A stretch of DNA of 64,000 nt. It comes from Terriglobus sp. GTDB lineage: Bacteria > Acidobacteriota > Terriglobia > Terriglobales > Acidobacteriaceae. The translations under genes were made by a program, and so were the position numbers. Below the pieces are notes generated by a model. That model made no database searches. It had not been told where the DNA came from and saw only the letters and a program-made list of their open reading frames with translations. The stretch lies in NCBI GenBank assembly GCA_965198455.1, contig CBDAPM010000003.1, positions 862,801-926,800 of the forward strand, in the 5' to 3' direction. Shown one piece after another: positions 9,826 through 31,889 of this stretch. The stretch's first letter is position 1, and every line of letters begins with the position of its first letter.

Positions 9826-9828
9826 AAG

Positions 9829-10955: not shown

Positions 10956-11064
10956 ATCGAAGGCATACCCTAATTGGCAATCTTGCTGCCCAGCTCAGTC
11001 AATACTGGGGCGCGAGGGAGGCTCTAGTGTTCTCCCTCGCGCCGTCTGGAGCCAGCCACAAAAC

Positions 11065-13355: not shown

Positions 13356-13388
13356 TGTCGTGCGATCAACGTTATGCGCCCCTTTCCT

Positions 13389-13424
13389 CTGCCGCGCTGC
13401 GTTATGCCGCGCGGCAGCTTTTTT
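13389..13424 (+). terminator. candidate rho-independent terminator
   Basis: An 8-9 bp GC-rich stem (CTGCCGCG / CGCGGCAG), followed by C + 6 T (TTTTTT), 34 nt after the hydrolase stop. Confidence 0.6.
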
Positions 13425-13480
13425 GCTCCTAGGGTCAGAGCGATGAAGCGCGACGAGATCAATGGAAAGGAAGTTTTGTT

Positions 13481-14872: not shown

Positions 14873-14921
14873 CGGTCCGGTAAGCCCTCAAAACGTTCTG
14901 CGGAAATGGAAAGGACTTGCT

Positions 14922-15458: not shown

Positions 15459-15551
15459 TGGCTCGAACTAAAGATCCATTCGTCGGGTCCCCTGCGTCGA
15501 CGCGTTAGTCATAATCGAACGCACAACGCCAATCGGAGAGGAGACTCGCAC

Positions 15552-17195: not shown

Positions 17196-17305
17196 TTGCA
17201 AACCAGCCAGACAGAGAGCCATTTCTTTTGACAAACGCTGGCGGCTTCCGCAAAGACTTCCCCCTCGAAGAGATCCTATCGTTGGAATCAGCTTCCGGAG
17301 AAATC

Positions 17306-17848
17306 ATGACCTTCGCTGACACAATCACTCTACGAAACGCCGAGTTTGCCAAGGAACGGTATTCGTCTGATCTAAAGATTATCCCCTCAGCGAAGACCAT
17401 CATCATCGGGTGCCTCGATCCGAGGGTCGATCCGGTAGACGTCTTCGGATTGAAGTCCGGGGAAGCGGCCATTTACAGGAATCTTGGCGGCAGGATCAAT
17501 CCTGCCCTCGTCGAAGCCATGGTCTTGCTCCCGATCGTGACCAGAGCCGCAGGCCAAGAGATGGGCGTAGGGTGGGATCTCATCATTCTCCACCATACCG
17601 AGTGCGGCATCATCGGCTGTTATAAACACACGCCTGATCTGCTCGCAGTCCATCTAGGGGTCAGCAGGCCCCAACTCGATCTTATGGCGATCGCAGACCC
17701 ACGCAAGGCTGTGGCCATGGATGTTGAAGCCTATAGGAGCAATGAAGACATCCCTGGTGGATTCATGATCTCTGGGCTTGTCTACGACGTTGCAACAGGG
17801 TTGATCGAAGTCGTCGTGCCTCCAAGCCGACTCCGCTTGGGCGCGTAA
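17306..17848 (+). CDS. beta-class carbonic anhydrase-like protein
   Basis: C-x-D-x-R (GCLDPRV) and H-x-x-C (HHTECG) zinc-ligand motifs. ATG 17306 follows GGAG. Confidence 0.7.
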   Translation: MTFADTITLRNAEFAKERYSSDLKIIPSAKTIIIGCLDPRVDPVDVFGLKSGEAAIYRNLGGRINPALVEAMVLLPIVTRAAGQEMGVGWDLIILHHTECGIIGCYKHTPDLLAVHLGVSRPQLDLMAIADPRKAVAMDVEAYRSNEDIPGGFMISGLVYDVATGLIEVVVPPSRLRLGA

Positions 17849-17950
17849 GTTCAACCCCACGCCGATCGGATTCGACTCTCGCCCTCCTTCCAAACCGTAA
17901 ATCAGCAACGCAGAAGTGATTCTAATTCCCAAGATCGAGTGAGGCGAGCC

Positions 17951-18862
17951 ATGAATTCTGATCAGGTAAGCAAGCTTAGTGCAGCATCTGACGAGGACAC
18001 AAAGCTGATCCTGGTTACCGGGGCAACAGGCGACACTGGACGGCCAACGGTGAAGCTTTTGCTAGAGAGAGGTCACCGAGTAAGAGCATTGGCGCGCAAA
18101 CAGGATGCGCGCTCCAGAGCACTTCAGGAGCTTGGCGCCGACGTTGTCTTTGGCGACATGTTGATGATTGGGGACATCAGGGCTGCGCTGAAGGGTGTCA
18201 GGAGTGCCTATTTCGTCTATCCTCTGGCGCACGGACAAGTTGAGGCCTCGGTAATCTTTGCCAAGGCCGCGGAAGAAGAAGGACTGGAACTCGTCGTAAA
18301 CATGTCCCATAAGCAGTCTCGGCCTTTCGCGAGAAGCCAAGCAACGATGGCTCATTGGCTTTCGGAGCAAGTTTTTGACTGGTCAGGAATACCCGTAACG
18401 CACCTCCGGATTACGTTCTTCGCCGAATGGATACTTTACATCTCCGCCCTTATCCGCAAGGGGCGTTATGTCGTTCCGTTCGATGGAGAAAGCCGTTTTG
18501 CTCCCATCGCGTCAAGCGATATTGCGCGGATCGTGGTCGGTCTACTTGAGAATCCAGCGAAACACGTCGGGCAGGCCCTATCCCTACACGGGCCTGTTGA
18601 ATATAGCCACGTCGAGCTTGCGGCCCTTATCGCGCGGGTTCTCGGAAAAGACGTTCGATTCGAAAAAGTCTCTACTCCCGAGTTCCTTGAGTTGCTCGGC
18701 ATTCCGAACGACACCGCAAAGGGAGCGCACTTCGAGGCGGTGAAGATTGATCAGCAGGAGGGACTTCTCAGCGGAACCGACAGCCTAGGATCGGAGATCG
18801 CCGGCGGCCCACTCATGACAATGGAAGAGTTCGTTGCAAACCATCGTGCGCAGCTGATGTGA
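17951..18862 (+). CDS. NmrA-family NAD(P)-binding protein (paralog of 5714..6625)
   Basis: ILVTGATGDTG, and the shared block HWLSEQVFDWSGIPVTHLR..FFAEW also found in the 5714 paralog. The start could instead be GTG 17939. Confidence 0.85.
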   Translation: MNSDQVSKLSAASDEDTKLILVTGATGDTGRPTVKLLLERGHRVRALARKQDARSRALQELGADVVFGDMLMIGDIRAALKGVRSAYFVYPLAHGQVEASVIFAKAAEEEGLELVVNMSHKQSRPFARSQATMAHWLSEQVFDWSGIPVTHLRITFFAEWILYISALIRKGRYVVPFDGESRFAPIASSDIARIVVGLLENPAKHVGQALSLHGPVEYSHVELAALIARVLGKDVRFEKVSTPEFLELLGIPNDTAKGAHFEAVKIDQQEGLLSGTDSLGSEIAGGPLMTMEEFVANHRAQLM

Positions 18863-18994
18863 ATGCGCGGATTCAGAGGCATAGTGCAGACCGCTAGCGC
18901 TCGAAAGCAGTGCCTTCTCCCTTGCCCGATCCAGCAATTGTGCTATGAGCATTCCACTTGTTCAAAGTCTTGATCGCATTTAGCGGAGACGTAC

Positions 18995-20620
18995 ATGGTG
19001 ACTGAGATCGCAGATAGTACCGCAAGTATCGATCTAGGTCATCAGGTCTCCACCGGCATCAGCCCCTGGGTGGTTGCACTGACTGTAACGCTTGCTACCT
19101 TCATGGAACTCCTGGATACGTCCATTGCGAACGTTTCCTTGCCATATATCGCTGGCGGTCTCGGTCGCTCCTTCGATGAGGTGACATGGATATTGACCAC
19201 GTATCTCGTTGCGAATGCAGTAGTCCTCCCGATGTCAGCCTGGCTTTCGCGCGTATTCGGCCGGAAGAACTACTACATGGCATGCGTATTTCTCTTCACC
19301 GTTACTTCCTTTCTGTGTGGGATTGCCCCAAGTCTTCAGGTGATCCTTATCGCGCGTGTGCTCCAAGGCATTGGGGGAGGAGGCCTCGCCCCTGTCGAGC
19401 AGGCCATCCTAGTCGACGCATTTGAGCCTGCTAAGCGGGCTTCGGCGTTTGCGCTTTACACCGTAGCAATCGTGACAGCACCAGCAATAGGACCGGTGTT
19501 GGGGGGATACATCACTGACAACTTCAGTTGGCGTTGGGTGTTCTTTATCAACATTCCAGTCGGCATCTTGTCGCTCATTTTGACGAACCGATTCGTACAT
19601 GATCCGCCCGCCTTCATCAAAGAGCGCGCTTCGGTTCGCGTCAATGGAAAGCTGCGGGTGGACGGTATCGGGATTGCTCTGGTCGGCATCGGTTCTGCTG
19701 CTCTGGAAGTTCTGTTAGATCGCGGGCAGATTGACGATTGGTTTGGCTCAAGGACCATACGCTGCTGTTCCGTTATAGCGGTCGTATGTCTCAGTGCCGC
19801 TGTGTATTGGGAGCTGCACACTCCGGAACCTATCATCAACCTAAGACTCTTGAAGGTCCGGAACTTTGCAATTGCTAACGTCTTCTACTTCGTCTTCGGC
19901 GTAGGGTTGTTCGCTTCCACCACGATGATTCCTCAAATCCTGCAGTCTCTTTTCGGATATCGAGCGATCGACGCGGGACTTGTTCTTGCCCCGGGGGCGG
20001 TGGTCATCACGTTGTTGGCTCCCCTAGGAGCTCAGTTAGTTCAGCGGAAGATCATCCAACCCCGGATCTTGTTGTTTGGCGCTGTAATGGTTGTCGGTAT
20101 CTCCTTCCTGCATTACAGCCGCATGAGCCTCGATACCGATTTCCAACATTGGGCACTTGCAAGGTCGCTCCAGGGTCTGGGTTACGCCTTCTTCTTTGTT
20201 CCTCTTTCGGTTCTTGCCTATTCACAACTCGCTCCCGAAGACAACAATAAGGCGTCCTCCCTCACTAATTTCTTCCGGAATTGGGGAGGTAGCTTTGGAA
20301 TTGCGCTAGTCACGATCATGAGCGACAGACGGGCTAGCTTTCATCAGTCGATTGTCGGTGCAAACCAGACGGCATCGACAGTGCCGTTCCAAACCTCGAT
20401 GAAGCAGCTAGCCGCTTATCTCCAGATACATGGGTTCTCCCAGGCGGACGCGATCCATGCTGCCACCGGTCGTATTTACGAACAGCTCCAAGTCCAGACC
20501 AGATTCCTGGCTTTCATGGACTGCTTTTACATTTTGGGCGTTGGAACGTTGATTGCTGCACCTCTCGTTTTGCTGACAAAGGGATTCCAGATCGGCGCAA
20601 AAGCGCCTGGCGGACACTAG
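18995..20620 (+). CDS. MFS multidrug transporter, DHA2 family (EmrB-like)
   Basis: WVVALTVTLATFMELLDTSIANVSLPYIAGGLG, LQGIGGGGL, 14-TMS layout. Close paralog of 58278..59864. Confidence 0.9.
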   Translation: MVTEIADSTASIDLGHQVSTGISPWVVALTVTLATFMELLDTSIANVSLPYIAGGLGRSFDEVTWILTTYLVANAVVLPMSAWLSRVFGRKNYYMACVFLFTVTSFLCGIAPSLQVILIARVLQGIGGGGLAPVEQAILVDAFEPAKRASAFALYTVAIVTAPAIGPVLGGYITDNFSWRWVFFINIPVGILSLILTNRFVHDPPAFIKERASVRVNGKLRVDGIGIALVGIGSAALEVLLDRGQIDDWFGSRTIRCCSVIAVVCLSAAVYWELHTPEPIINLRLLKVRNFAIANVFYFVFGVGLFASTTMIPQILQSLFGYRAIDAGLVLAPGAVVITLLAPLGAQLVQRKIIQPRILLFGAVMVVGISFLHYSRMSLDTDFQHWALARSLQGLGYAFFFVPLSVLAYSQLAPEDNNKASSLTNFFRNWGGSFGIALVTIMSDRRASFHQSIVGANQTASTVPFQTSMKQLAAYLQIHGFSQADAIHAATGRIYEQLQVQTRFLAFMDCFYILGVGTLIAAPLVLLTKGFQIGAKAPGGH

Positions 20621-20678
20621 CGGTGTGCATTTGACTTGGCCCGCCGGAATCTAGAGCACACGCTATTGAAAGGGAAAG

Positions 20679-21650
20679 ATGCTTGGTCTTCGTTTGTTTG
20701 CTGGTCTTTTTGCAGTCTCACTGATTCGGGTTATCGCCGGTAAACAGGAGCCGCATACCAAGGAAGAAAGTGTTCCCTTTGTCATCCGGGACATCTCCGG
20801 CCCACGCCCGTTCGTCATGGCTCAACTGAACGGCAAGCCCTTCGAGATGATGGTCCACAGCGGTGCCAGCTTTTACGCCCAGACGGATCACGCCCGTGCG
20901 AAATCCATAGGAATTACCCCCGTGACCAGCGACAGCAATTATGGCATCAGCGCAGTGGGACACGTGAGCTCTCTTGGGAAGGGTCAAGCTATATTGGACT
21001 CGCTGGTGGTGGGAGCCTCCGTTTCAAGCCGGGTGCCAATCTCAATCTTCGAAGTGCCCGTTCCCTCGATGGAGGGCATGCTTGGAAGAAAGTGGCTCAT
21101 CGAGAACTCAGTGATAGTGGATTTCGAAACCCGTCGCTTAATCTTCCCTTCGTCACATGACTCTGCACTTGGGCAAGACGCATTTCTTGTAGCTCATGGG
21201 TACTCTCCGCATCGGATGATGGAGGGAGCGGAATCTGGTGGCCGTTCCTTGGTATCCGTATCTGTGAACGGTACGGTCGGCCTCTTTCTGGTAAGCACTG
21301 TCGCTAACACTGTTGTCGACGTCCGGTTTGCCAACCGTGCCGGGATAGCGCATTCCGCCACCGGAGAAGCATTCGGTGGACCAACGGGAACAACCGGCGC
21401 CACCGACCGAAGCAAAAGGGCGCTGAGTTTTTTGCTCGACGGACAAGTCATGAGGAAGGTGACGCCTGAGGTTTTCGATACATTCGCTTACGATGGGCAA
21501 GGTCGATCAAAATCTGTAGCGGGCCAGACAGTGGGTTCCTTGGGAGCTGACTTCATGCTGGCGAACCATGCGGTAATTGATTTCGCAACCGGGACGCTTC
21601 TGGTCCGGCGTCGCATCAAATCGGTCTTGCGCGCGGAGAGAGACTTTTAA
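20679..21650 (+). CDS. exported tandem retropepsin-like (aspartic-protease-fold) protein with degenerate active sites
   Basis: Two repeats fit the pattern xLNGxxxxxx-(D-T-G-A-S)...GMLGxxWL...VIVDF/VIDF. The first has HSGAS (MMVHSGAS) and the second has STVAN where DTGA is expected. Confidence 0.5.
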   Translation: MLGLRLFAGLFAVSLIRVIAGKQEPHTKEESVPFVIRDISGPRPFVMAQLNGKPFEMMVHSGASFYAQTDHARAKSIGITPVTSDSNYGISAVGHVSSLGKGQAILDSLVVGASVSSRVPISIFEVPVPSMEGMLGRKWLIENSVIVDFETRRLIFPSSHDSALGQDAFLVAHGYSPHRMMEGAESGGRSLVSVSVNGTVGLFLVSTVANTVVDVRFANRAGIAHSATGEAFGGPTGTTGATDRSKRALSFLLDGQVMRKVTPEVFDTFAYDGQGRSKSVAGQTVGSLGADFMLANHAVIDFATGTLLVRRRIKSVLRAERDF

Positions 21651-21719
21651 TCGACGACCGCATCGGCCTGGAACTTATCCATCCAAACGGGGAAGCAAGC
21701 CAGCTCTTCGGTAGGGAAG

Positions 21720-22358
21720 TTACTTCTCACAAGCCGGCGCAATGCGCTCGTAGAACTGGCTGCCAATCTGGCGGTCGAGCTGCCGAACGGATCATCCGGA
21801 GCGCAACGCTTCGGCTTCGTAGAATTGGCGAGCCTCTTGGTTTCTCACCGAGAGCAGTCGTACATAGGCGCACCATGGTAACGGGAAGCGGTTCGCGACG
21901 GCGGTGAAGTCCGATATGGTCGATCCCGCGGCAGGGTGAGCAAATTGTCCAGACGGTGTCTGGAGAATGTTCCTCTCGGGCCAGGTTCGATAAAAACCGC
22001 TCATCTGCCAGAGATTGGCTCTGCCGAACCCGCGTCCGAAACGCCGCGTGAGGTCCTTGGCGAGTTGCTCCACCAGCTTCTCACCGTATTCCGCCCAGTT
22101 CTCTCCTCGCATCTCAGATTCAACGATGCGCCTTCCGATTTCCCAATACGTCGCGGTCATGACCGCGTTAATGCTGCGCGCTGACGCGACACGAGCGGCT
22201 TGCAACAAATCGACGATGCCGTTGCGAACATAGGCGTAGTCCGCATCTGGTCTGTCCAGCTTCTGCTCAGCCCTATCCAGGTCCATCCCAATCCATTTCA
22301 TTGATTGCACTCCGCTGGTTTCGCCAACCAGGGGAGACGTGCCGACTGCGCTAAACAA
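21720..22358 (-). pseudogene. DUF1016/YhcG-family (PDDEXK nuclease) gene remnant with nonsense codon and 3' truncation
   Basis: N-terminal YhcG-like sequence (AVMTATYWEIGRRIVESE...GFGRANLWQMSGFY...EARQFYEAEALRSG). An in-frame TGA (21792-21794) then occupies the position where family members have Trp. The frame continues SVRQLDRQIGSQFYERIA and ends, so the nuclease domain is missing. Confidence 0.7.
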
Positions 22359-22512
22359 AAGTAGTGGTGAGCTGGTCCGCTACGACCCAGCTCACCCGCC
22401 CTAAAAGTTTGTGTCAAAGGCCGCCGATTAGGTCCGTTTTGCCGGTTCTTTCGGTTGCTAACTACTTACTGTCGATAACTTAGCGTTTTGCAAGTTCCGT
22501 GGCATGGAGGCG

Positions 22513-23754
22513 TCAAGCCCACAGGCAAGATATAGGAGCGGCGAATAGGCGGTCCCCGAAAGGGACCACCTTCGTTCCGTCGTACATTACGATTCCAACT
22601 TTCAGGTCATCACCACAAATGTCCAACAGCTTCCTGATCCCTTTGAAGTCGCTCGCATGGACGGTTGCGCTTGCTTTGACCTCAACACCGACTAGTGCGC
22701 CGTGTTCATCCTCTACGACGATGTCAATCTCATCCTGATCCTTATCCCGATAGTGATGGAGCGTATAGCCTTCGTCGGACCATGTGATCTGCTTCATGAC
22801 TTCGGCAAATACAAATGTTTCCAGCAACGCACCAAACGTGGAGCGGTCCTTTGCTATCTGCGCAGTAGTCAATGCCAGCAAGGTGGCGAGCAACCCCGAG
22901 TCGACGAAATGTAGTTTTGGGGTCTTGATCAGTCGCTTCAGTTCATTGCGGAACCACGGGGATACCCGCTGCACGAGAAAGAGCTGTTCAAGGATGCCGG
23001 TGTATTTTCTTGTCGTCTTGTCGTCCATCCCGATCTGTCCGCCGATTTGAGTGAAGTTGGTAAGTTGCCCGGACTGGTGGGCGAGTGCCTGGAGTAACCG
23101 CGGCAACTGATCCAGCTTCTCTACTTCCGCGATATCCCGCACATCCCTCTGTACGATCGCCTTCACATAGTCGCGCGCCCAAGCCTGACGTCGCCGGGAG
23201 TCTTCTCTTCGCAGCATCTCAGGGTAGCCGCCTACCAGCACCGCATGGACAAGCTGATCGCCCTCGATGTCCGGCCCCGGCTTCACCAACTTGCCATCGA
23301 ATGCCATCTTCAGAAAGGTGGGCTCTTTGCCGAGTATTTCGGCTCTGGAAATCGGCATCAGATTTACGATTTCCATGCGGCCTGCAAGGCTCTCGGACAC
23401 CTGAGGAAGAGTGAGAATGTTGGCAGATCCCGTTAGCAGGAAACGGCCTGCCCTGCGGTCGTTATCAACGGATCGTTTTATGGCTCTCAGAAGTTCCGGG
23501 GCTCTTTGCACTTCGTCGACGGTTACCAGATCGAATCCACGCACAAAGCCAGCGGGGTCGTTGCGAGCGGCTTCAAGCACCGTGTCGTCATCCAAAGTCA
23601 CATACTCGCGGTTCTTATCGGCGAACTGTTGGACAAGCGTCGTCTTGCCGCACTGTCGTGGTCCTATCAGCATGACCACGGGAGTGTCAGTAAGGGCGGT
23701 GGCCACGCGTCGGGCTGCGAATCTCTGTACGAACTGGAAATTGGCGTCGGCCAT
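22513..23754 (-). CDS. AAA-type ATPase with C-terminal DUF4143 / restriction-endonuclease-like domain (COG1373-like)
   Basis: Walker A GPRQCGKTT, Walker B VTVDEVQ, C-terminal DEIDIVVEDEHGALVGVEVK (PD-(D/E)xK-like). Confidence 0.85.
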   Translation of the reverse strand: MADANFQFVQRFAARRVATALTDTPVVMLIGPRQCGKTTLVQQFADKNREYVTLDDDTVLEAARNDPAGFVRGFDLVTVDEVQRAPELLRAIKRSVDNDRRAGRFLLTGSANILTLPQVSESLAGRMEIVNLMPISRAEILGKEPTFLKMAFDGKLVKPGPDIEGDQLVHAVLVGGYPEMLRREDSRRRQAWARDYVKAIVQRDVRDIAEVEKLDQLPRLLQALAHQSGQLTNFTQIGGQIGMDDKTTRKYTGILEQLFLVQRVSPWFRNELKRLIKTPKLHFVDSGLLATLLALTTAQIAKDRSTFGALLETFVFAEVMKQITWSDEGYTLHHYRDKDQDEIDIVVEDEHGALVGVEVKASATVHASDFKGIRKLLDICGDDLKVGIVMYDGTKVVPFGDRLFAAPISCLWA

Positions 23755-24046
23755 CTCGGATTATTGTATCGTCTAATCCGGATCTAATTCCCGTCCGATT
23801 CGGATTAAGGACCCGGCCAAACCGGAAGGGTTGAAAGGCTGCCGCCCCAACCCCGGCAACCAATCTTTACAAATTCTACGGGGATTTTGCCTTCATCCAG
23901 AACTACGGCACCCCCCTAAATACTGGACCGACGTACAAATAGCGTACACATAAGAAGCGAAATGAGCCCAAATGGTCCCATTCAAGCCCAAAGCCATTTC
24001 CCGTAAAACCCATCCCTTCAACAACTTCCATTGATTCCAAACCGCT

Positions 24047-24112
24047 TAGCATACTTGGAAGGCAGCCCTGAAAAGGCCGGCGTCGGCGGTTCGATCCCGT
24101 CTCTGGCCACCA
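24047..24112 (+). pseudogene. truncated tRNA-Phe(GAA) remnant (5' acceptor strand missing)
   Basis: TA-GCATACTTGGAAGGCA (D-arm-like), anticodon loop CTGAAAA, GTC-GGCGG-TTCGATC-CCGTC T-arm, TCTGGCC-A-CCA 3' end. No complement (GGCCAGA) occurs upstream, and the anticodon stem 5' strand is 2 nt short relative to canonical tRNA-Phe. Confidence 0.65.
24091..24112 (+). repeat. direct repeat copy 1 (tRNA-Phe 3' end; att-like)
   Basis: TCGATCCCGTCTCTGGCCACCA matches 30104..30125 at 21/22 positions in the same orientation. Confidence 0.8.
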
Positions 24113-24227
24113 CCACCGTTACACACAGTTGATTCATCGAAAACCGGCCCAATGCCGCCATTTGGGCAGCTTTAGCTCCGACTTCCTTCGTGGAGCGACG
24201 AGGCAAAGCTTTAGCCTCTAACGGATC

Positions 24228-25059
24228 TCAGCCGGGCAATGCGTCTTGAACGGACTCCGCGATGTAGCTCTTCATCGCCTGGTTCAACTGCGAATCCACT
24301 TCATCGGCAATCGTCATAACACCCAGGAGCAGGACACTGAAGTCAATCGTCCCCAGGTTTTTTTGCAATGTATGGAAGATCGTCACCTGGAGAATGCGGC
24401 TTTCTTCGACCATCATGGCGGCGGTGTAATTTTGTCTGCGACGAGCGAGCCCGTGAGCTGAGGCGGCTTCAGACTTCAGCTCCTTAGTCCCAAGCGGCTT
24501 CAAAGACCCCAGCCGTCTTGCAAGATCGCGAAAGAGCTGGGGCAGGTGCTCGCAACGTAATTCGCGGCTGAGTGGAACTGCTATCAAATCATCTTCTTGT
24601 TCTAACCCACTCATACCACTCACGAATCGCCTCTTCTCTCGTGCGTTCGAGAATGGTGGCGAGAGTTTCAATCTTGCGCTTTTGAAGCGGTCCCTTGGCA
24701 AGACGCTGCGTGATCGCGGCGATCAGGTCAGGAACGTTCATGGGCTTGACGAGGATTTCGTCGGTTTGGAGCAAAATCGCGTTGGCCGCAGCGGACATTT
24801 CAGGAAACGAACTCAGCAGCAAAGTCACAGCCTCTGGATTGGCATGGCGCATCGCACTCACAACAGTCAATCCGTCACCGGCATGAGGCATATGCAGATC
24901 GCTCAATAGAACATCGAAGTTTTGTGAGCTGATCAGCCTCAATGCTTCTTTTGCGTCAGCCGCGGCAGTCGCCTCGAAACCATGCTTCTCAAGAATGGTG
25001 CAAAGACTCAAACGGATCGGTTCGCTATCGTCAACTACAAGTACCCTCGCCAACGCCAT
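24228..25059 (-). pseudogene. response regulator (receiver + RsbRD_N-like C-terminal domain) split by a frameshift
   Basis: Receiver domain (VLVVDDSEPIR...DVLLSDLHMPHAGDG...LVKP) runs into ...ILERTREEAIREWYEWV and stops at TGA. The continuation EQEDDLIAVPLSRELRCEHLPQLFRDLARRL lies in another frame (track ORF 24228..24701). The 832-nt span is not a multiple of 3. GGAGG lies before ATG 25059. Confidence 0.6.
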
Positions 25060-25368
25060 TGAACCTCCAAGTGGTCGCAGACGAGTGTCCGAGTGTCCCC
25101 AGCTAGCTTGAGCATACGCTTTGTCGCATAAGTTACACATTTAAGTTAGGATGAAGCGCGAAACTTAGGCAAAGAGAGTTCCGGAGGGTCAAACGGTACC
25201 ATCAACAATCCGGCATTATTGGAGCACTGAGCAAAGCTTTCATTCGCGCTCGAACAACAGCCCGGTGAACCAAGGCAGCGGACTTACTACAAGTACAAAG
25301 GACAATGTTCTGCGCTATGGACGGCTAGCGCAGAATGTATCTTATGGAATCCAGAACCCGGTGCCGTC

Positions 25369-26114
25369 TTGCAAATCGAAGAAACGCTGCAACTGGCCGC
25401 CGAGACGGCTGGCATCGGCACCTGGCATCTGTCCTTACCTGAGAGCGAACTTAGCAGTTCTCCCAAATGTAAAGAGGTCTTCGGTCTCTCTGCTGACGCT
25501 CCATTCCGATACGAAGATTTCCTCTCAGTGGTGCATCCCGATGACCGATCGTTGGTTGAGGCAACGGTAGCCCCCGCTCTCGACCCGCAAGGAACAGGAA
25601 GCGCCATTGGACGCGGCACTGTCTTTGAGCTTTCCCTCGATGGAGGAGAGGAAAGAGTGTCGGATAGGCAAGAAGAAACTAAATCGTACTGACCAGACCG
25701 CCGCAGGTTAGTTAAGAGTAAGTGCATAAAGGAGCACAAGACTATCTAACCTCTACGCTCGCTAGCAGCCAATTTCCGATTCGGACCATCAAGAAGTGAA
25801 ACACGAGATCAGCATGTCCGGGCTCAAGGACCGTTCATAGTGTCGGAGGATAAAGTCGCGTGCCGGTATCGCCTATATTGGGGCGTCAGGAGAACATATC
25901 GACCCGCTTCCTCTGATGATCACGGATATCGTGATGTCTGGGTTTAGCGGGTCTGTACTCACGGAAGGTCTTGCAACCATCAGGCCGGAGACCAAAGTGC
26001 TGTATACCTCGGGATACGCCGACGACGAAACTGTTCAGCTGAATGTGCGCGGAAGAAATGATGTACAGAGAGCGCATTCTGGCAAGAGTTAGCCCACATA
26101 TCCTGAAAAGCTAA
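25369..26114 (+). pseudogene. hybrid sensor histidine kinase remnant (PAS fragment, HATPase tail, receiver fragment)
   Basis: AAETAGIGTWHL...FRYEDFLSVVHPDDRSLVEATV (PAS) is joined directly to GRGTVFELSL (end of HATPase_c). A receiver C-terminal half follows in another frame at ~25890-26110 (LMITDIVMSGFSGSVLTEGLATIRPETKVLYTSGYADDE). No HisKA domain is present. Confidence 0.6.
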
Positions 26115-26276
26115 GAAACAGCAAAGAATCCATGTATCCGCATGAGCGCTCCCGTCAAAGAAGCCTATAGTGGACACACTGATTCGGTTCTCGAGGACCG
26201 CTTCCACTTCCGAATTCCATCTAGATAACTCCTGTATGACCTCGAGGGCCGCCTGCTTGGCTGAGAGGTTTCCGAA

Positions 26277-26738
26277 ATGGTCTCACTCGTTCACTGCATC
26301 TACGCAAGCACGGCTACGCGTCCCTTCAGCGAGGCTCAACTTGCAACCCTGATCCAGGGTGCCCGTGTGAAAAATCAGGGTCTCGGTGTGACAGGAATTC
26401 TTGTCTATATGTCCGGTCGATTCTTTCAAATACTGGAAGGCGAAGCGGCAGTGATTGAACAACTATATGCCGCAATCGAGGGCGATCAGCGTCACAAGGA
26501 AGTGACGCGAATCATATTCGAGTCCATTCATGCGCGCGAATTCCGGGATTGGTCCATGAGTTTGATCGATCTTTCCGGGGACAAGCTTCGCCAACTCGTC
26601 CTGCTGGCCGATCCGACAAGCGGGATGCTGTCAGTCTCACAGCTTCCCAACGGGCGCGCAAAGAAACTGTTGCTGGCCTTTTGCGAGGGACGTTGGGGAC
26701 TGACCTTGGCTGACCTCGCGGTGAAATCGACGATATGA
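26277..26738 (+). CDS. BLUF-domain blue-light FAD photoreceptor (short, stand-alone)
   Basis: LVHCIYASTA (Tyr), GVTGILVYMSGRFFQILEG (Gln), DQRH, FRDWSMS (Trp/Met): all canonical BLUF signature positions. Confidence 0.9.
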   Translation: MVSLVHCIYASTATRPFSEAQLATLIQGARVKNQGLGVTGILVYMSGRFFQILEGEAAVIEQLYAAIEGDQRHKEVTRIIFESIHAREFRDWSMSLIDLSGDKLRQLVLLADPTSGMLSVSQLPNGRAKKLLLAFCEGRWGLTLADLAVKSTI

Positions 26739-27532
26739 GCGCAAAACGTTCCCATGTCGTAGAGATCTCAGAGCCGGCACGGCTTTCCGCAGAGCAGGCG
26801 GCGGGAAAACCCATCAGTTTCGCATTCCAACCCATCGTCGATGCAAAGACCCATGAAATCCTGTCGTACGAAGCTTTGGTACGTGGCTCGGCCGGCAATG
26901 AAACAGCAGCTCAAATCTTCGAGCAGATTGCTCCGACCGATCTCAACCTTTTCGACCAGCGCTGCCGAACCACGGCAATCGACTTGGCCGTGAAGCTAAA
27001 AATTCCTTGCAATCTCAACTTGAATATCCTCGCCAATAGCAGGTATTCGCCCGAGAGGAGAATCCGGACAACGTTTGAGGCTGCAAATCGTGGAGGCCTC
27101 CCTTTGGATTGCATCGTGCTGGAGGTTTCGGAGAGTCAGATCGTCCACGATCCTTCAGAGTTCGCGAGGATGGTGAATCTGTATCAAGGCATGGGTTTCA
27201 AAATGGCAATCGACGATTTCGGTGCAGGCTACGCCGGCTTAAGTCTCTTGGCCGACTTCCAACCTAATCAGATCAAGATCGACAGAGGCCTCATTCACCA
27301 CATCGAAAGTCGAGGCCCACGGCAGGTTATCGTTCGTGCCGTCATACAAGTGTGCCGCGACCTTGGAATCGATCTTGTCGCCGAAGGTGTCGAAACCACG
27401 GAGCAATATGCGTGGCTGGCCAGCGAGGGCGTCCGCTACTTTCAGGGTTACCTTTTCGGACATCCAGCTTTCGAAACTCTGGAGACACCATCGTACGGCC
27501 ATATCTTGCCCGCTTCTGGGGAACCCACTTAA
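26735..27532 (+). CDS. EAL-domain c-di-GMP phosphodiesterase (stand-alone)
   Basis: FQPIV, YEALVRG, NLNILAN, LEVSES, DDFGAGYAGLS, KIDRGLI, EGVET, QGYLFGHP: a full catalytic EAL motif set. ATGA start/stop overlap with the BLUF gene. Confidence 0.9.
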   Translation: MSAKRSHVVEISEPARLSAEQAAGKPISFAFQPIVDAKTHEILSYEALVRGSAGNETAAQIFEQIAPTDLNLFDQRCRTTAIDLAVKLKIPCNLNLNILANSRYSPERRIRTTFEAANRGGLPLDCIVLEVSESQIVHDPSEFARMVNLYQGMGFKMAIDDFGAGYAGLSLLADFQPNQIKIDRGLIHHIESRGPRQVIVRAVIQVCRDLGIDLVAEGVETTEQYAWLASEGVRYFQGYLFGHPAFETLETPSYGHILPASGEPT

Positions 27533-27592
27533 GGTTGTCAACAGACGACCTAAAGGCATCCCTGCCCGGCGTTTGCCTGACGACTGAATTTC

Positions 27593-28045
27593 TCAGAACT
27601 TTGCGATGAGGCTGATTCCGCCAACCAGCAGGACGCCACCTACTATCCGACCAACGTTCAGCGGATGGGCCTGCATTCTGAACCACCCAAAATAGTCGAT
27701 CAGTAGCGAAGTGATCAGCGCAGCGGTCACAGTAAACCCGACGAATGGTCCTGCGCCCACTTTATTGACCAGCGTAAGGCCAGCATAGACCTGCACTGCT
27801 CCTACCAAGCCGCCAACGACTGCCCACCAAGGTAGTTCTGCCAAGTCCTTCTGAGTAGGCAGTGGGTGGGGATGGATCAACGAAGCGCCAGCGAAAAAGA
27901 AGGTAATGAGCGCAAATGAAATAGCCGAAGCAAGCCACGGGTTGACGACATGTTTGTTGAGGTGACCGTTCATCGCCGCACCGCAACTCTACAGCGCACC
28001 TCCGATGAGGATGAAGGGAATGATCCATCCGGCGTTCGCACTCAT
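27593..28045 (-). pseudogene. DMT-superfamily DUF606/YdcZ-like membrane protein with in-frame amber codon
   Basis: ATG 28045 (after AGAGGAGAG) gives MSANAGWIIPFILIGGAL-TAG-SCGAAMNGHLNKHVVNPWLASAISF... in one frame. The TAG at 27989-27991 sits where I recall this family having a conserved Gln. Confidence 0.6.
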
Positions 28046-28062
28046 AAGACTCTCCTCTGTGT

Positions 28063-29373
28063 TTAGTGTTTTCCGACCAGCATGTTCATCAAGATTGCTC
28101 CGCCGAGCGCGGCAAACAGCGCCACAGGCATTGCAACTACACCCACTTTCAAGAACTTCCAGAAACTCACGTCGAGTTTCTCTCCACCTGCGTCTCCACC
28201 CGAGTCCTTGCGAAGTGCAAGCAGCCACAGAATCGTGGCCAGCGAGCCGGTGACCGAGAGATTGGGCCCTAGATCCACACCGATCAGAACGGCATTGGCA
28301 ATCAATCCTTTTGTATGAGCGGCTTGAATCGTGCCCCCCGCAATCAGTCCCAACGGAAGGTTGTTCACGATATTGTTCGCTACGCCCACAACAAAGCCGA
28401 CAACGAGCGCACCGGCGTTCTGGCCCAAATGCGATGCACATGCAAGCCACTCTTGGGTCAGCTTCAAAGCTCCCTGACTCTCAACAGCATCGACCAAGAC
28501 AAACAGGCCGGCGACGAGCAGCAGCGTTGCCCAACTAATCTCGCGGGCAAGCCTGACGGGATTGCTTTTTGCCTTCACGGAGACGACTGCGGTGATCACC
28601 AGCGCAACAAGGCACGTCGGCAGTCCCAAATCTTTCTTCAGTGCTGAGGCCGTCAGAAGCACTGCAATCATCAGCGCGAGACCTGCGAGGACCCGCCGGC
28701 CGTTGCTGGTCAGCTTCACATCTTCTACCTCGCACTCGATGCTCTTGCAGAGATCGTCGCGAAACAGAAAGCGCATGACGAAAAATGTCACAAGGATCGA
28801 GAAAAGCGAGGGGATGCCGAAGTCCGCAAGCCATGTCCCCAAGGGGGGCATACCGGCGTGGAAGACGACCAGGTTGGCGGGATTTGAGATGGGGAGTACA
28901 AAGCTTGCGGCGTTTGCAATCAACGCGCAGACGAACAAGTACGGAAGCGGCGAGACTCTTGCCTTGCGTACTGCCGTCAGGATCGCCGGCGTCAACACAA
29001 CTGCGGTAGCATCGTTCGACATGAAAATCGTCACCAGCGTTCCCACTCCATAGACAAGCAGGAAGAGACGCGAGCAGCTGCCGTTGGCCCCGCGTACCGC
29101 GATTGAAGCCACCCAATCAAAGACGCCCTGTTCCCTCGCCAGCTCGCTGAGGAGCATCATGCCGATGAGGAACAGGTACACATCGCTGCCCTTTGCGACG
29201 GCCTGTCCGGCCAACTTCAGCGGCACAAGCCGCAACGCTATCAAAACAAGCGCTCCTCCTGAGACCCACCAGACTTCAGGGATTCCGCGCGGACGTGTCA
29301 GCATCAGAGCAATGCTGATGGCGACAATCAGCGGCAGAACAACGTGCCCGATCTCGGTAGTGATCATCACCAT
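28063..29373 (-). CDS. ArsB/NhaD-superfamily permease (arsenite-efflux-like)
   Basis: 436-aa polytopic protein with ...LFLIGMMLLSELAREQGVFDW...LTIFMSNDATAVVLTPA..., typical of ArsB/anion permease families. Confidence 0.8.
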   Translation of the reverse strand: MVMITTEIGHVVLPLIVAISIALMLTRPRGIPEVWWVSGGALVLIALRLVPLKLAGQAVAKGSDVYLFLIGMMLLSELAREQGVFDWVASIAVRGANGSCSRLFLLVYGVGTLVTIFMSNDATAVVLTPAILTAVRKARVSPLPYLFVCALIANAASFVLPISNPANLVVFHAGMPPLGTWLADFGIPSLFSILVTFFVMRFLFRDDLCKSIECEVEDVKLTSNGRRVLAGLALMIAVLLTASALKKDLGLPTCLVALVITAVVSVKAKSNPVRLAREISWATLLLVAGLFVLVDAVESQGALKLTQEWLACASHLGQNAGALVVGFVVGVANNIVNNLPLGLIAGGTIQAAHTKGLIANAVLIGVDLGPNLSVTGSLATILWLLALRKDSGGDAGGEKLDVSFWKFLKVGVVAMPVALFAALGGAILMNMLVGKH

Positions 29374-29395
29374 TTCTTTCCGTTCTTGTTCGGCC

Positions 29396-29803
29396 CAAGT
29401 TCCATTGGCTGAGTATTTCCTAGCGCGTTACACGCAACGAAATCAACTCGCTTCGACGGGCCTTGCTGCCGATGCCGTCGTGGCTCTCCAAGACTATTCC
29501 TTCCCAGGCAACGTGCGAGAGTTGGAGCACCTGATCGAGCGGGCTGCCGTCAAAGCCGGGGGCCGGGCTATAACAGCCGACCTCATCCAAGAAGAGTTAG
29601 CGAGAGAAGAGTGCAGGGCCAGGCATCTTCGACGCTCAAGCAGCCGATGCGATGCCCTTCCATGATGCGGTCGCGCGTTGGGAACGTCATCTCATCGAGC
29701 AGGCGCTGAAGGCGTCTCGCGGCAACAAATCTAACGCCGCTCGGCGGCTGGGAATCCATCGAAGCTTCTCTACGAAAAGCTAACCCAGTTTGGCATGCTG
29801 TGA
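29396..29803 (+). pseudogene. 3' remnant of a sigma-54-dependent (NtrC/Fis-family) transcriptional activator
   Basis: PLAEYFLARY...LQDYSFPGNVRELEHLIERAAV (end of the AAA+ sigma-54 interaction domain). After frameshifts it continues FHDAVARWERHLIEQALKASRGNKSNAARRLGIHRS / KLLYEKLTQFGML (Fis-type HTH). There is no N-terminal part; the homology begins about 25 nt from the ArsB-like start. Confidence 0.65.
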
Positions 29804-30103
29804 CTCGAATGGGTGTGTGGATCATGCAGGAAGGAAAGGGTCATGCAGATCGGCTGGAGAGACACCCGTTGAAGCGGGATCAAGCAATTCGGTTGATGCA
29901 CTGGCTTTGCGGGAATGTCAAAGGCATGGCCAGCTGCGTTAGCCATCTCCAAGATGTCTGCCCGAAAGAAGGCTTGCTCCGCACCCGGCTGCTCATAGGA
30001 ACCAAGGGAGACGGTGCTGGTGATTCTTTGCCTGCGTACACAATGCTGTGCGGTCGCATATTGCTGCCGCGTTCTTCAACTAGTTTGCGGTATGTAACGG
30101 TAA

Positions 30104-30125
30104 TCGATTCCGTCTCTGGCCACCA
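30104..30125 (+). repeat. direct repeat copy 2 (tRNA-Phe 3'-end fragment; att-like)
   Basis: TCGATTCCGTCTCTGGCCACCA. No tRNA body lies upstream of it. Confidence 0.8.
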
Positions 30126-30396
30126 TATTCTAAGAACGTATAAGGCGACCAGATTCTCTCAGATCTGTCCAGGACACATACAAGGACACGTCCTGGAACT
30201 ACGTGGCACCTCGGTACTCCATCGTCAGCCTCGGCGTTCTATTTGCCGATACGGCATCCTCTTCCTCATCTCTTTCTGGCTTCGGCTCGAGCTTGCTCCA
30301 TATCTCGCGCGAGACGCTTCCGGTCTTCCCGATGCGCGGATTTGCGTTTGCAGATGGTGAACATGTTCACCTACCATGCGCGCACGGGAAGAGCCG

Positions 30397-31644
30397 TCAG
30401 ACACTGGCAGCTGCCGTCTCGTGTTTGGGCGTGGCGTACGCCGGCATGGCAAACGTGACCAGCGCTGCCACAAGGCTTAGGGCGACGAACAGCAACAGGC
30501 CGGGGTTGTAGCGGCCGGTCCGGTCAAAGCTCATGCCCAGCACCAACGGACCGATGCCGATCGACAAAGCAAACAGCCCAAAGGCGATGCCGTACAGGCG
30601 GCTGAAGGCTGCATTGCCGAAGTAGCGGCGCACAAGGAACGCGGTGAAATCCACCTCCGCGCCGAGCACCAGACCAAGCAGGAGAGCGGCAACAGCATCC
30701 GGCAGCTTGCCGTGCGCGTAGATGAGCAGCAGTAGCGATGTGACCACCGCAAGGCCGATCAGCGCGAGCAGACGTGCCGCGTTGAACCGGTCAAGTAACC
30801 AGCCGATGCCGCCGCGACCGGCGATAACCGCGAGACCGGCCAGCCCGGCAATCCGCGCCGCCTCCGTAGGATTGTTGCCGCGGTCCACCAGCATGGGCAC
30901 AAGGCTGGCAAAGGTACCGCCGGCGGCGATGGAGATCAACATCAGCACCGCGGACATCACCAGAAACGCGCGCGTCCACAGCAGGGGCGCGATAGCAACG
31001 CGATCGCGAACCCGGTTCGGCAGCGGAAACCGCGCAATGCGCGTAGCGACGGCAGCGGCAGGCACCGTCACAATCAGCGTAATAAGACCGATGGCCGCAT
31101 AGGCGCTTCGCCATCCGTAGTGGCCAACAAACCAGGTGGCAAGCGAGGGCAGCAGCGCGGCGCCAAGACCGATCCCCATCAGGGACAGCCCAAGTGCCAA
31201 ACCGAGCCGTCGCTCGAAGCTGCGCACCAGGACCGCCGCATAGCCGATGGGAGAAGCGCCGCCGCCGAAGCACGAAAACAGCGCATAGAGCAGGTAAAGG
31301 TGCCAAAGATGCGGGGTCAGCAGCGATAACGACGCAAAGGCGAGCGAGAGGCCGACAACCGAGGGCAGGATGACGCGGCGAGGACCGAAGCGGTCGATGA
31401 GCCAACCCCACAGCGGGGCAGTCAAAGCGACGGCGAACTCGCCTGTGACAAGGGCAATGGATACCTGCGTCCGGGTCCAGTGAAACTCCCCGGAGAGTGG
31501 GCGAACAAAGACGCCAAAGACATAAATGAGCAGGCTGCCGACGGAGAGCAGAAGGCAAATGCCGCAGCAGACCACCGTGAGCCAGTCGCGGTCCATGGGA
31601 GCAGCAATGTCCAGGGACGAGTTTCTTTCGTGTGCAGCAGGCAT
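30397..31644 (-). CDS. MFS transporter (12-TMS type)
   Basis: Polytopic MFS_1-like protein. Start set at ATG 31644 (AGGAG upstream) rather than the track start 31845. Divergent from a TetR gene. Confidence 0.85.
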   Translation of the reverse strand: MPAAHERNSSLDIAAPMDRDWLTVVCCGICLLLSVGSLLIYVFGVFVRPLSGEFHWTRTQVSIALVTGEFAVALTAPLWGWLIDRFGPRRVILPSVVGLSLAFASLSLLTPHLWHLYLLYALFSCFGGGASPIGYAAVLVRSFERRLGLALGLSLMGIGLGAALLPSLATWFVGHYGWRSAYAAIGLITLIVTVPAAAVATRIARFPLPNRVRDRVAIAPLLWTRAFLVMSAVLMLISIAAGGTFASLVPMLVDRGNNPTEAARIAGLAGLAVIAGRGGIGWLLDRFNAARLLALIGLAVVTSLLLLIYAHGKLPDAVAALLLGLVLGAEVDFTAFLVRRYFGNAAFSRLYGIAFGLFALSIGIGPLVLGMSFDRTGRYNPGLLLFVALSLVAALVTFAMPAYATPKHETAAASV

Positions 31645-31663
31645 CGCAGGCTCCTGGTGGAAT

Positions 31664-31773
31664 GTGAACGTGTTCGCAAAACGAGATTCGGTGAGAGGGC
31701 GCATGCTTGTCAAGCAACGGACGCTTCGGGTAGTGAAAGCCGGCACGCGTGTATGGCGCTTGTGAACTCGTTC
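31664..31773. promoter_or_regulatory. candidate TetR operator motifs GTGAAC-NN-GTTC (two copies) in the divergent intergenic region
   Basis: GTGAACGTGTTC at 31664-31675 and GTGAACTCGTTC at 31762-31773. A half-like GTGAACGATTTG lies at 31804-31815. Confidence 0.3.
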
Positions 31774-31889
31774 CCTATCTACTGTTGCGGTAGTACGCAC
31801 GCGGTGAACGATTTGCTGGAATTCACCCGGATTCTTCGAAGCCACAGTATCAGGAGGAAGGCTCTAAAATTCGTAGCTAAGGAGAACCT

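What the first reader, a model, noticed from the sequence alone, without database searches (positions are those of the whole stretch)
24047..30125. Truncated tRNA-Phe plus a 22-nt direct repeat of its 3' end 6 kb away: att-like scars around an integrase-less cassette
24047-24112 carries most of a tRNA-Phe(GAA): D-arm-like segment, anticodon loop CTGAAAA, GGCGG-TTCGATC-CCGTC T-arm and TCTGGCC-A-CCA end. The 5' acceptor strand (expected GGCCAGA) is absent and the anticodon stem is 2 nt short, so it cannot fold as a functional tRNA. Its last 22 nt (TCGATCCCGTCTCTGGCCACCA) recur in the same orientation at 30104-30125 (TCGATTCCGTCTCTGGCCACCA, 21/22) with no tRNA body upstream. Duplicated tRNA 3' ends are the classic footprint of tyrosine-integrase-mediated insertion. 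The bracketed 6 kb holds intact BLUF/EAL and ArsB-like genes and at least four decayed genes, but no recombinase. Two scenarios fit. In the first, islands accreted in tandem downstream of an intact tRNA-Phe lying left of the window. In the second, a single old island now sits next to a tRNA gene that has itself been truncated.
Basis: partly seen in the sequence, partly recalled or inferred. Interest (0 to 1): 0.7.

Follow-up and report, generated by a model that had tools for sequence, protein, structure and literature searches.

The report
tRNA-Phe island junction scars, tandem array
The "broken tRNA-Phe" is the right-hand junction left when a large, widely shared mobile island inserted into the tRNA-Phe gene of an Acidobacteriaceae (Granulicella-like) genome, and the 22-base repeat 6 kb away is an older scar of the same kind, so this is an ordinary tandem array of integrated elements.

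Summary
Bases 24065-24112 are 48/48 identical to the 3' part of the tRNA-Phe(GAA) of close relatives, and 30104-30125 repeats the last 22 nt at 21/22. No functional tRNA is present.

It is not a decayed tRNA gene. A 97-98% identical relative (L162) has an intact tRNA-Phe followed directly by window 24113 onward, so everything left of 24065 is an insertion. Thirteen other contigs, including Granulicella arctica, carry the same "arm + 48-nt core". Eleven retain readable sequence after CCA, and they split into about seven different flanks there. 24047-24112 is therefore the attR of island A, of the anticodon-loop att class.

Related islands sit next to intact tRNA-Phe, tRNA-Ala or tRNA-Val with a tyrosine integrase. 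A sister island in tRNA-Ala ends in an analogous 49/50-nt tRNA-Ala fragment.

The 6-kb segment (GC 0.545, against 0.60-0.625 on its flanks) lay downstream of the tRNA before island A arrived. It holds decayed genes and no integrase. It ends in the 22-nt repeat, which is followed by a tRNA-trailer-like motif and a probable vestige of an integrase C-terminus.

This is a known kind of structure, and interest is low to moderate.

The parts
1..24064 (.). Island A, the part inside the window. Cargo: MFS/OEP/HlyD efflux, ECF sigma, NmrA, hydrolases, flavoprotein reductases, DinB, DHA2 MFS, Asp-protease-like, and candidate defence genes at the right end. The left end lies outside the window.
   Evidence: 94-97% nt identity to L081, L091, L147 and L155. 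Proteins are >=90% identical in G. arctica, G. aggregans, G. sibirica and Acidisarcina. GC 0.548. Absent from the near-identical relative L162.
22463..22515 (+). Nested third scar: a truncated tRNA-Ala(GGC)-type attR. It consists of the island right arm plus the anticodon arm GTTCCGTGGCATGGAGG at 22494-22510, and it breaks before the T arm.
   Evidence: Aligns to the right end of L155, where the complete 49/50-nt tRNA-Ala 3' fragment abuts a core S1 gene.
22513..23754 (-). AAA_14/DUF4143 ATPase, a conserved right-end gene next to attR. It matches the PADLOC candidate defence family PDC-S01.
   Evidence: Pfam hits. PADLOC hit at 1.8e-176. The exact protein occurs on 34 contigs, always ~290 nt from the attR.
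24044..24064 (+). Island-borne right arm of attR (GCTTAGCATACTTGGAAGGCA).
   Evidence: Conserved in 13 other contigs with different downstream flanks. Not tRNA-derived: 7/27 ungapped identity.
24065..24112 (+). 48-nt identity block (core) of attR. It is tRNA-Phe(GAA) nt 28-75, from the anticodon stem through CCA.
   Evidence: Identical to the intact tRNA-Phe of L162, L120, L121 and L006. Homology to other island copies ends at 24112/24113; in three of them it continues to 24126.
24113..30103 (.). Segment B: an older, integrase-less, decayed accessory segment. It lies immediately 3' of tRNA-Phe in the uninterrupted relative.
   Evidence: L162 has tRNA-Phe followed by window 24113-24239 and 26121-28036 at 97-98% identity. 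GC is 0.545, against 0.625 to the left (L162 core) and 0.60 to the right. Its first 14 nt are shared with the flank after attR in L083, L084 and L089.
24240..26120 (.). 1.9-kb stretch absent from L162. It holds a response regulator and PAS and receiver fragments of a decayed sensor kinase.
   Evidence: Blast gap against L162, with GCAA microhomology at both edges. Pfam hits.
26277..27532 (+). BLUF (26277-26738) and EAL (26735-27532) genes, both intact.
   Evidence: Pfam 8.9e-29 and 4.1e-49. 95-98% aa identity in L162.
28063..29373 (-). ArsB/CitMHS-family permease, intact.
   Evidence: Pfam hit. Homologs are 87-91% identical in many Granulicella and Acidisarcina genomes.
29402..29765 (+). Sigma-54 activator C-terminal fragment (AAA lid plus HTH_8, frameshifted, no AAA+ core).
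   Evidence: Six-frame Pfam scan.
30104..30125 (+). 22-nt direct repeat of the tRNA-Phe 3' end (nt 54-75, from the T loop to CCA; 21/22 identity). Putative attR of segment B, of the T-loop/junction att class.
   Evidence: The GC step occurs at this position.
30126..30140 (+). Trailer motif TATTCTAAGAACGTA. It resembles the sequence that follows tRNA-Phe or attR elsewhere.
   Evidence: 30104-30140 (the 22-nt repeat plus this 15-nt trailer) aligns at 89% to L087, L088 and L090. Compare CATTCTAAAGAAC (L120/L121), CATTAGAATGAAC (G. arctica), CACCCCAAGAAC (L081) and TTTTCTAAGCAAC (L086).
30277..30333 (-). Probable vestige of the extreme C-terminus of a tRNA-Phe-type tyrosine integrase (IGKTGSVSREIWSKLEPKP).
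   Evidence: tblastn gives 9/19 identity to the L120 integrase tail. An HMM of three integrase tails has this as its only hit among 2017 six-frame segments (E 0.024; next best 8.9). Strand and distance from the repeat match L120/L121.
30397..31845 (-). MFS transporter, the first gene of the higher-GC right flank.
   Evidence: Pfam hit. 31534-42676 is 98.3% identical to L161, from the same sample as L162.

Best explanation
The locus is a tandem array of integrative elements at the 3' side of a tRNA-Phe(GAA) gene.

(1) Island A. A tyrosine-integrase island inserted by site-specific recombination in the anticodon-loop region of tRNA-Phe. At least 24 kb of it lies in the window. The island carries its own copy of tRNA nt 28-75, so the gene should be regenerated at the island's far (left) end, outside the window. 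The displaced original 3' part now follows the island's right arm. That displaced fragment is 24047-24112, an attR, not a broken gene.

(2) Segment B. 24113-30103 was already downstream of the tRNA before island A arrived. It is most likely the decayed remnant of an earlier element that used a shorter (22-bp, T-loop class) identity block, which leaves 30104-30125 as its attR. Its integrase has been lost.

(3) Possible third element. The ~240 nt to the right of the 22-mer carry a tRNA-trailer or island-left-arm motif and a ~19-45-codon vestige of an integrase C-terminus on the minus strand. This is the geometry seen next to intact tRNA-Phe in related islands, so a third, still older element was probably deleted down to this stub.

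What is shown: the insertion polymorphism, the exact end of island A, the tRNA origin of both repeats, and integrases at the homologous position in relatives.

What is inferred: the regenerated tRNA-Phe and integrase at this genome's left end, the island status of segment B, and the third element.
For: Empty site. L162 (97-98% nt identity) has an intact tRNA-Phe at 7628-7702, flanked on the left by core genes (GC 0.625) and followed directly by window 24113 onward.

Precise end. Ten contigs (L081-L090), plus G. arctica (L164) and L165, carry the identical arm and core ending at CCA; L166 shares the adjacent module but stops before the core. The eleven with readable sequence after CCA diverge there into about 7 flank classes: core genes, another integrase, RM genes and others.

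Family behaviour. L120 and L121 have an intact tRNA-Phe, then 75 nt, then a 391-aa PF00589 integrase on the minus strand. The cargo-identical island L147/L155 has tRNA-Ala plus a 440-aa integrase at one end and a 49/50-nt tRNA-Ala 3' fragment at the other. Other relatives sit at tRNA-Val. L087, L088 and L090 show attR joined to the left arm and integrase, as in attP or a tandem array.

Composition. GC is 0.548 (island A) and 0.545 (segment B), against 0.60-0.625 on the flanks, with a step at 30.1 kb.

Repeat statistics. Integrase-tail vestige.

Literature. A regenerated tDNA plus a displaced fragment marks island ends, crossover subsites are the anticodon loop, the T loop or the T/acceptor junction, and tandem arrays are known (PMC4383910).
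Against: The window's own left junction (intact tRNA-Phe plus integrase) could not be read. The genome's gene positions are not indexed.

Island A's cargo is closest to islands that sit in tRNA-Ala, and a tRNA-Ala attR fragment is nested at 22463-22515. Island A is therefore a composite, and its left end may be more complex than 'tRNA-Phe then integrase'. In G. arctica the same cargo sits in a larger element with a TrwC relaxase.

For segment B there is no integrase remnant. The only close relative also carries segment B, so no empty site was seen for it. Its permease has 87-91% identical homologs in most Granulicella genomes, which could mean a conserved resident gene.

The integrase-tail match is short (E 0.024 window-wide).
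Confidence: 0.85

Rival explanations
1. A resident tRNA-Phe gene was truncated and mutated in place. Its 5' acceptor strand and D arm were lost by deletion or decay, next to a single old island.
For: No tRNA is predicted at the locus. TAGC and GG motifs upstream of the core look superficially like a D arm.
Against: The sequence upstream of the core is identical in 12 contigs with unrelated downstream flanks, including G. arctica, so it travels with the island. The near-identical relative has the intact gene at exactly this junction with different upstream DNA. Ungapped identity of the upstream 27 nt to the tRNA is 7/27.
Confidence: 0.02
2. The 22-mer at 30104-30125 is not an att scar of segment B. 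It is what remains of a longer att or tRNA copy after a deletion. The original could be a 48-nt attR, or an attL-type junction of a neighbouring element of the L120/L088 type. Segment B would then be ordinary chromosomal or mosaic DNA trapped between elements.
For: The 15 nt after the 22-mer and the integrase-tail vestige match the left end of L120/L088-type islands. Segment B has no integrase. Its permease is widely conserved in the genus. There are many deletion footprints nearby.
Against: The 22-mer starts exactly in the T loop, a recognised crossover subsite. The GC dip spans 24.1-30.1 kb and is bounded by the tRNA and the repeat. The first 14 nt of segment B recur after attR in other genomes with different cargo.
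Confidence: 0.2
3. The 22-mer is a chance or dispersed short repeat unrelated to recombination.
For: None beyond its short length.
Against: There are only two copies in 64 kb, and none of 100 shuffles gave two matches. Among the 80 loci fetched at that point it otherwise matches only a genuine tRNA-Phe 3' end (L006). Orientation is the same as the tRNA, and it coincides with a GC step.
Confidence: 0.01

Closest known systems
tRNA-gene-targeting genomic islands / integrative elements as defined by Islander (Hudson, Lau & Williams 2015, PMC4383910; Williams 2002 att sublocation classes)
   Same: The target is a tRNA gene. The island restores the gene and the displaced 3' fragment marks the far end in direct orientation. 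The 48-nt block starting in the anticodon stem corresponds to the 'A' (anticodon-loop) subsite. The 22-nt block starting in the T loop corresponds to the T-loop/junction subsite. A PF00589 integrase sits next to the tRNA in homologous islands. GC differs from the flanks.
   Different: In this window neither the regenerated tRNA nor an integrase is visible. Island A is a composite that also carries a truncated tRNA-Ala-type attR inside it.
Tandem arrays / site-specific accretion of islands at one tDNA (e.g. K. pneumoniae Asn tDNAs, PMC4891358; Dehalococcoides ssrA islands, PMC3146451; ICE/IME accretion reviews, PMC5704250 and PMC5812530)
   Same: Successive elements are stacked downstream of one tRNA gene, each separated by a repeat of the tRNA 3' end. 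The youngest is nearest the gene and the older ones are decayed.
   Different: Islander counts a tandem member only if it has its own integrase. Segment B has none, and the putative third element is only a ~240-nt stub.
CIMEs (cis-mobilisable elements: att-flanked, integrase-less remnants of ICEs/IMEs, described in streptococci; recalled from knowledge and from review PMC5704250)
   Same: Segment B is bounded by att-type repeats (the 48-nt core on the left, the 22-mer on the right) and lacks recombination genes.
   Different: The two repeats belong to different att classes (48 vs 22 nt). No evidence of mobilisation exists. Not tested.

Membership tests
tDNA-integrated genomic island (Islander criteria) - island A | Displaced 3' fragment of the target tDNA at the distal end, in the same orientation as the gene | tested here: met
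   24065-24112 is 48/48 identical to tRNA-Phe nt 28-75.
tDNA-integrated genomic island (Islander criteria) - island A | Intact (regenerated) tDNA at the proximal end | not testable with these tools
   It lies left of the window, and the genome is not retrievable. Met in relatives: L120/L121 (tRNA-Phe plus integrase) and L147 (tRNA-Ala plus integrase).
tDNA-integrated genomic island (Islander criteria) - island A | Tyrosine integrase gene inside the island | tested here: inconclusive
   No recombinase among the ORFs of at least 150 aa with plausible gene coordinates scanned in 1-24 kb. Homologous islands have one ~7 kb beyond the window's left edge.
tDNA-integrated genomic island (Islander criteria) - island A | Presence/absence polymorphism with a precise boundary (empty site) | tested here: met
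   L162 has an intact tRNA-Phe continuous with window 24113 onward. Eleven other contigs break right after CCA.
Tandem island array - segment B as a member | Own tDNA fragment at its distal end | tested here: met
   30104-30125, 21/22 identity, direct orientation.
Tandem island array - segment B as a member | Own integrase gene | tested here: not met
   No PF00589 hit in ORFs or six-frame scans of the regions examined in 24113-30103, and no tblastn hit with 4 family integrases.
Tandem island array - segment B as a member | Absent from some close relatives with a clean junction | not testable with these tools
   The only close relative (L162/L161) also has segment B, and its contigs break before the 22-mer.
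Functional tRNA-Phe gene | Cloverleaf recognised by tRNA detectors or covariance models | tested here: not met
   ARAGORN finds 0 genes. Rfam gives no tRNA hit at E<=10.

The most novel reading that the evidence does not exclude
The window samples a currently active, modular island family of peat/tundra Acidobacteriaceae. Near-identical cargo (94-99% nt across genera) is re-targeted between tRNA-Ala, tRNA-Val and tRNA-Phe by swapping end modules. The nested tRNA-Ala attR fragment at 22463-22515, fused to a conserved 1.65-kb 'PDC-S01 ATPase plus tRNA-Phe attR' cassette, would record an integrase-mediated island-into-island (pseudo-att) recombination that created a new chimeric element.
Probability: 0.3. 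Interest if true: 0.5.

Novelty: new member of a known kind. Interest (0 to 1): 0.3.

Why it matters
It turns an apparently broken essential tRNA gene into a well-understood footprint. It also fixes the right boundary of a ≥24-kb, recently acquired island to the base. That island carries efflux, redox and candidate defence genes and is shared among Granulicella, Acidisarcina and many peat-soil metagenome contigs. Mobile elements of Acidobacteriota are poorly catalogued, so the mapped att sites (a 48-nt tRNA-Phe core, a 49-50-nt tRNA-Ala core, and their conserved arms) give concrete handles for finding and delimiting such islands in soil genomes. As a mechanism it is textbook.

Tried and rejected
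(1) Reading the window's own genome leftwards. Exact-protein look-ups for four window proteins found no indexed gene, although the proteins are in the collection on a 4.38-Mb contig.

(2) Looking for an empty site of the right junction through relatives of the MFS gene. The 80 genome loci were at best 73-78% identical, with no synteny beyond MFS/TetR and no adjacent tRNA-Phe. The one tRNA-Phe (L006) lies on the other side.

(3) A close relative of the right flank (L161) starts inside the MFS gene, so the 22-mer junction is unseen.

(4) Integrase remnants inside segment B. tblastn with four family integrases and six-frame Pfam scans found none.

(5) Using the permease to show foreign origin of segment B. 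It has 87-91% identical homologs in most Granulicella genomes and is not near the MFS homolog in L001-L009. The result is ambiguous.

(6) G. arctica as a complete example of the composite. There the cargo and the ATPase/attR module lie 3 Mb apart, so it does not show the composite's left end.

Full report
**1. Observation**

The sequence at 24047-24112 reads TAGCATACTTGGAAGGCAGCCCTGAAAAGGCCGGCGTCGGCGGTTCGATCCCGTCTCTGGCCACCA. Its last 22 nt recur at 30104-30125 with one mismatch, on the same strand. None of 100 dinucleotide-preserving shuffles gave two matches. A sensitive search with the whole tRNA found no third copy in the window.

ARAGORN predicts no tRNA anywhere in the 64 kb. Rfam reports no tRNA at gathering score or at E<=10 around the locus.

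**2. Organism, and what the tRNA looks like intact**

Protein relatives place the window in Acidobacteriaceae (Granulicella-like). The window's own proteins are recorded on a 4.38-Mb contig.

Intact tRNA-Phe(GAA) genes of relatives (L006, L120, L121, L162) read GGCCAGATAGCTCAGTGGTAGAGCGCG-GCCCTGAAAAGGCCGGCGTCGGCGGTTCGATCCCGTCTCTGGCCACC(A). Window 24065-24112 is identical to nt 28-75, which run from the second or third base of the anticodon stem to CCA.

The 27 nt upstream match the tRNA at only 7 ungapped positions. The 'D-arm-like' part is therefore not tRNA-derived.

**3. The left repeat is the attR of an island lying to its left**

The DUF4143 ATPase gene (22513-23754, minus strand) encodes a protein found with the identical sequence on 34 contigs. 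Ten of these were fetched (L081-L090).

All ten share 94-99.7% nt identity with the window up to 24112 or 24113; three of them continue to 24126. All ten contain the same 'GCTTAGC(A/T)TACTTGGAAGGCA + core' sequence. After CCA they diverge into at least six different sequences. One flank leads to core genes (melibiase, HxlR, amidase; L081). Another leads to a different integrase, DUF1016 and NACHT (L082). Another leads to restriction-modification genes (L084).

Granulicella arctica and one further metagenome contig (L165) carry the same arm-plus-core module, at 93% identity. In G. arctica it lies at the end of an island with different cargo. A third contig (L166) shares the module but ends before the core.

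The decisive result is L162, a 9.7-kb contig that is 97-98% identical to the window. It has an intact tRNA-Phe at 7628-7702. Adenosine-deaminase, AA-permease and PIG-L genes precede it (GC 0.625). It is followed directly by CCACCGTTACACACAGTTGATTC..., which is window 24113 onward, including BLUF/EAL. None of the genes upstream of the tRNA in L162 occurs in the window.

So everything left of 24065 is an insertion into tRNA-Phe, and 24047-24112 is its attR.

**4. How the island family works**

No recombinase was found among the plausible ORFs of at least 150 aa in 1-33 kb. The integrases sit at the other end of homologous islands.

- The cargo of window 3-21739 is 94-96% identical to L091, L147 and L155.
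- In L147 this island starts with tRNA-Ala(GGC), then a 440-aa PF00589 integrase, a 107-aa ORF and LysR.
- In L155 it ends with a 49/50-nt copy of the tRNA-Ala 3' part, again starting in the anticodon stem, which abuts a core S1 gene.
- Among 50 metagenome loci that share the LysR end module, a tRNA gene lies ~2 kb upstream: tRNA-Ala in 13, tRNA-Val(CAC) in 4 and tRNA-Phe(GAA) in 2. Each tRNA type is paired with its own integrase type. Only the ~1.3-kb LysR module is shared; the cargo differs.
- L120 and L121 have an intact tRNA-Phe, then CATTCTAAAGAAC..., then a 391-aa integrase on the minus strand whose stop lies 75 nt from the tRNA.
- In L087, L088 and L090 the tRNA-Phe attR is followed directly by that left arm and an integrase C-terminus (77% nt to L120). 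This is the arrangement expected for attP or a tandem junction.

This is the standard tyrosine-integrase mechanism. The element carries a copy of the tRNA 3' part, crossover occurs in the anticodon-loop region, the gene is regenerated and the original 3' fragment is displaced (PMC4383910).

For this genome, the regenerated tRNA-Phe and the integrase at the left end are inferred, not seen.

**5. Island A is a composite**

At 22463-22515 the window carries the right arm and anticodon arm (GTTCCGTGGCATGGAGG) of the tRNA-Ala-type attR. It is broken before the T arm and fused to the 1.6-kb ATPase module that ends in the tRNA-Phe attR.

The same fusion is present in L081-L090 and in G. arctica, with different left breakpoints (22440 and 22463). 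The bases to the right of the anticodon loop differ from tRNA-Ala (GGAGG-CGTCA against GGAAG-AGGTCA). That is what a recombination into a pseudo-att site would leave. This reading is an inference.

In G. arctica the cargo homolog lies in a larger element with a TrwC relaxase, 3 Mb from the ATPase module. The left end of the window's island may therefore be more complex than 'tRNA-Phe then integrase'.

**6. Segment B (24113-30103) and the 22-mer**

*Evidence that segment B is an older element*

- Segment B was already downstream of tRNA-Phe before island A arrived (L162).
- Its GC is 0.545, against 0.625 to the left (L162 core) and 0.60 to the right.
- Its gene content mixes intact and decayed genes:
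  - Intact: BLUF, EAL and an ArsB/CitMHS permease.
  - Also present: a response regulator with a disrupted C-terminal extension.
  - Decayed: PAS and receiver fragments, a YdcZ gene with an in-frame stop, and a frameshifted sigma-54 activator C-terminus.
- A 1.9-kb stretch (24240-26120) is missing in L162, with GCAA at both edges.
- Its first 14 nt (CCACCGTTACACAC) recur, 13/14, right after attR in L083, L084 and L089 before different cargo. This suggests an island left arm.
- It ends at the 22-mer, which begins in the T loop, a recognised second crossover subsite, and which coincides with the GC step.

These points favour an older, integrase-less element whose attR is 30104-30125.

*Caveats*

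- No integrase remnant was found in it.
- The only close relative also has segment B, and its contigs break before the 22-mer.
- The permease has 87-91% identical homologs in most Granulicella and Acidisarcina genomes, although not near the MFS homolog in L001-L009.

**7. What follows the 22-mer**

TATTCTAAGAACGTA resembles the sequences that follow tRNA-Phe or its attR elsewhere: CATTCTAAAGAAC, CATTAGAATGAAC, CACCCCAAGAAC and TTTTCTAAGCAAC. It is either the native trailer or the island left arm. In the tRNA-Ala islands the two share 9 nt, so they cannot be told apart here.

At 30277-30333 the minus strand encodes IGKTGSVSREIWSKLEPKP. The integrase tails read ITKTGTTAKV(L/I)W.... A profile of three such tails hits only this segment among 2017 six-frame segments of the window (E 0.024; next best 8.9). 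Strand and distance from the repeat match L120.

I read this as the stub of a third, older element whose integrase was deleted up to the MFS gene. My confidence in that reading is about 0.5-0.6.

**8. Verdict**

- The 48-nt fragment is the anticodon-class attR of a recent, widely shared composite island.
- The 22-mer is most likely the T-loop-class attR of an older degenerate element.
- Beyond it lies the vestige of a still older one.

This is a new instance of a well-known kind of structure. What it adds is mainly the base-exact mapping of att sites for a modular island family in Acidobacteriaceae.

Noticed in passing
window 22463-22515: A truncated tRNA-Ala(GGC)-type attR (right arm plus anticodon arm) is nested inside island A. 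It is fused to the ATPase/tRNA-Phe-attR module. The same fusion is seen in L081-L090 and in G. arctica, with different left breakpoints.
   Followed up: partly
window 22513-23754 (-) and 21792-22358 (-): The att-proximal DUF4143 ATPase matches the PADLOC candidate defence family PDC-S01 full-length (1.8e-176). The truncated DUF1016 gene matches PDC-S02. Candidate defence genes therefore sit at the island's right end.
   Followed up: partly
window 20774-22462: The Asp-protease-like gene and the DUF1016_N fragment are present in the window and in L081 but absent from L082-L090. In L155 the same interval is expanded by two IS110 copies, GmrSD and a JmjC/cupin gene.
   Followed up: partly
L087, L088, L090 (about 75-450 nt from the contig ends): The tRNA-Phe attR is followed directly by the island left arm and an integrase C-terminus. 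This is an attP-like junction, which suggests excised circles or tandem copies in the sampled populations.
   Followed up: partly
L084 9469-9542; L089 626-699: About 100 nt beyond the island end lies an inverted, 85%-identical copy of the right arm plus the first part of the tRNA-Phe-like core.
   Followed up: no
L163 (G. arctica JAGTUT010000001.1, 4.14-4.16 Mb): The homolog of the island cargo (85% nt) continues into TetR/AraC/SDR genes and a TrwC relaxase. In that genome it is therefore part of a larger, possibly conjugative element.
   Followed up: no
window 24240-26120: A 1.9-kb stretch (response regulator, PAS and receiver fragments) is absent from the 97-98% identical relative L162. GCAA microhomology is present at both edges, which suggests a simple deletion in L162.
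   Followed up: yes
window 28063-29373 (-): The ArsB/CitMHS permease is 87-91% identical to homologs across Granulicella and Acidisarcina. The neighbouring MFS and TetR genes are only 72-78% identical to the same genomes. This is unusually high conservation or horizontal spread.
   Followed up: partly
window 32662-33306 (+): A FAD_binding_3 N-terminus is joined to an aromatic-ring-hydroxylase C-terminus in a 214-aa ORF, which looks like an internally deleted monooxygenase. In L161 the region is called as two short genes.
   Followed up: no
window 55000-64000: GC skew becomes strongly negative (-0.2 to -0.3) over the last 9 kb of the window.
   Followed up: no
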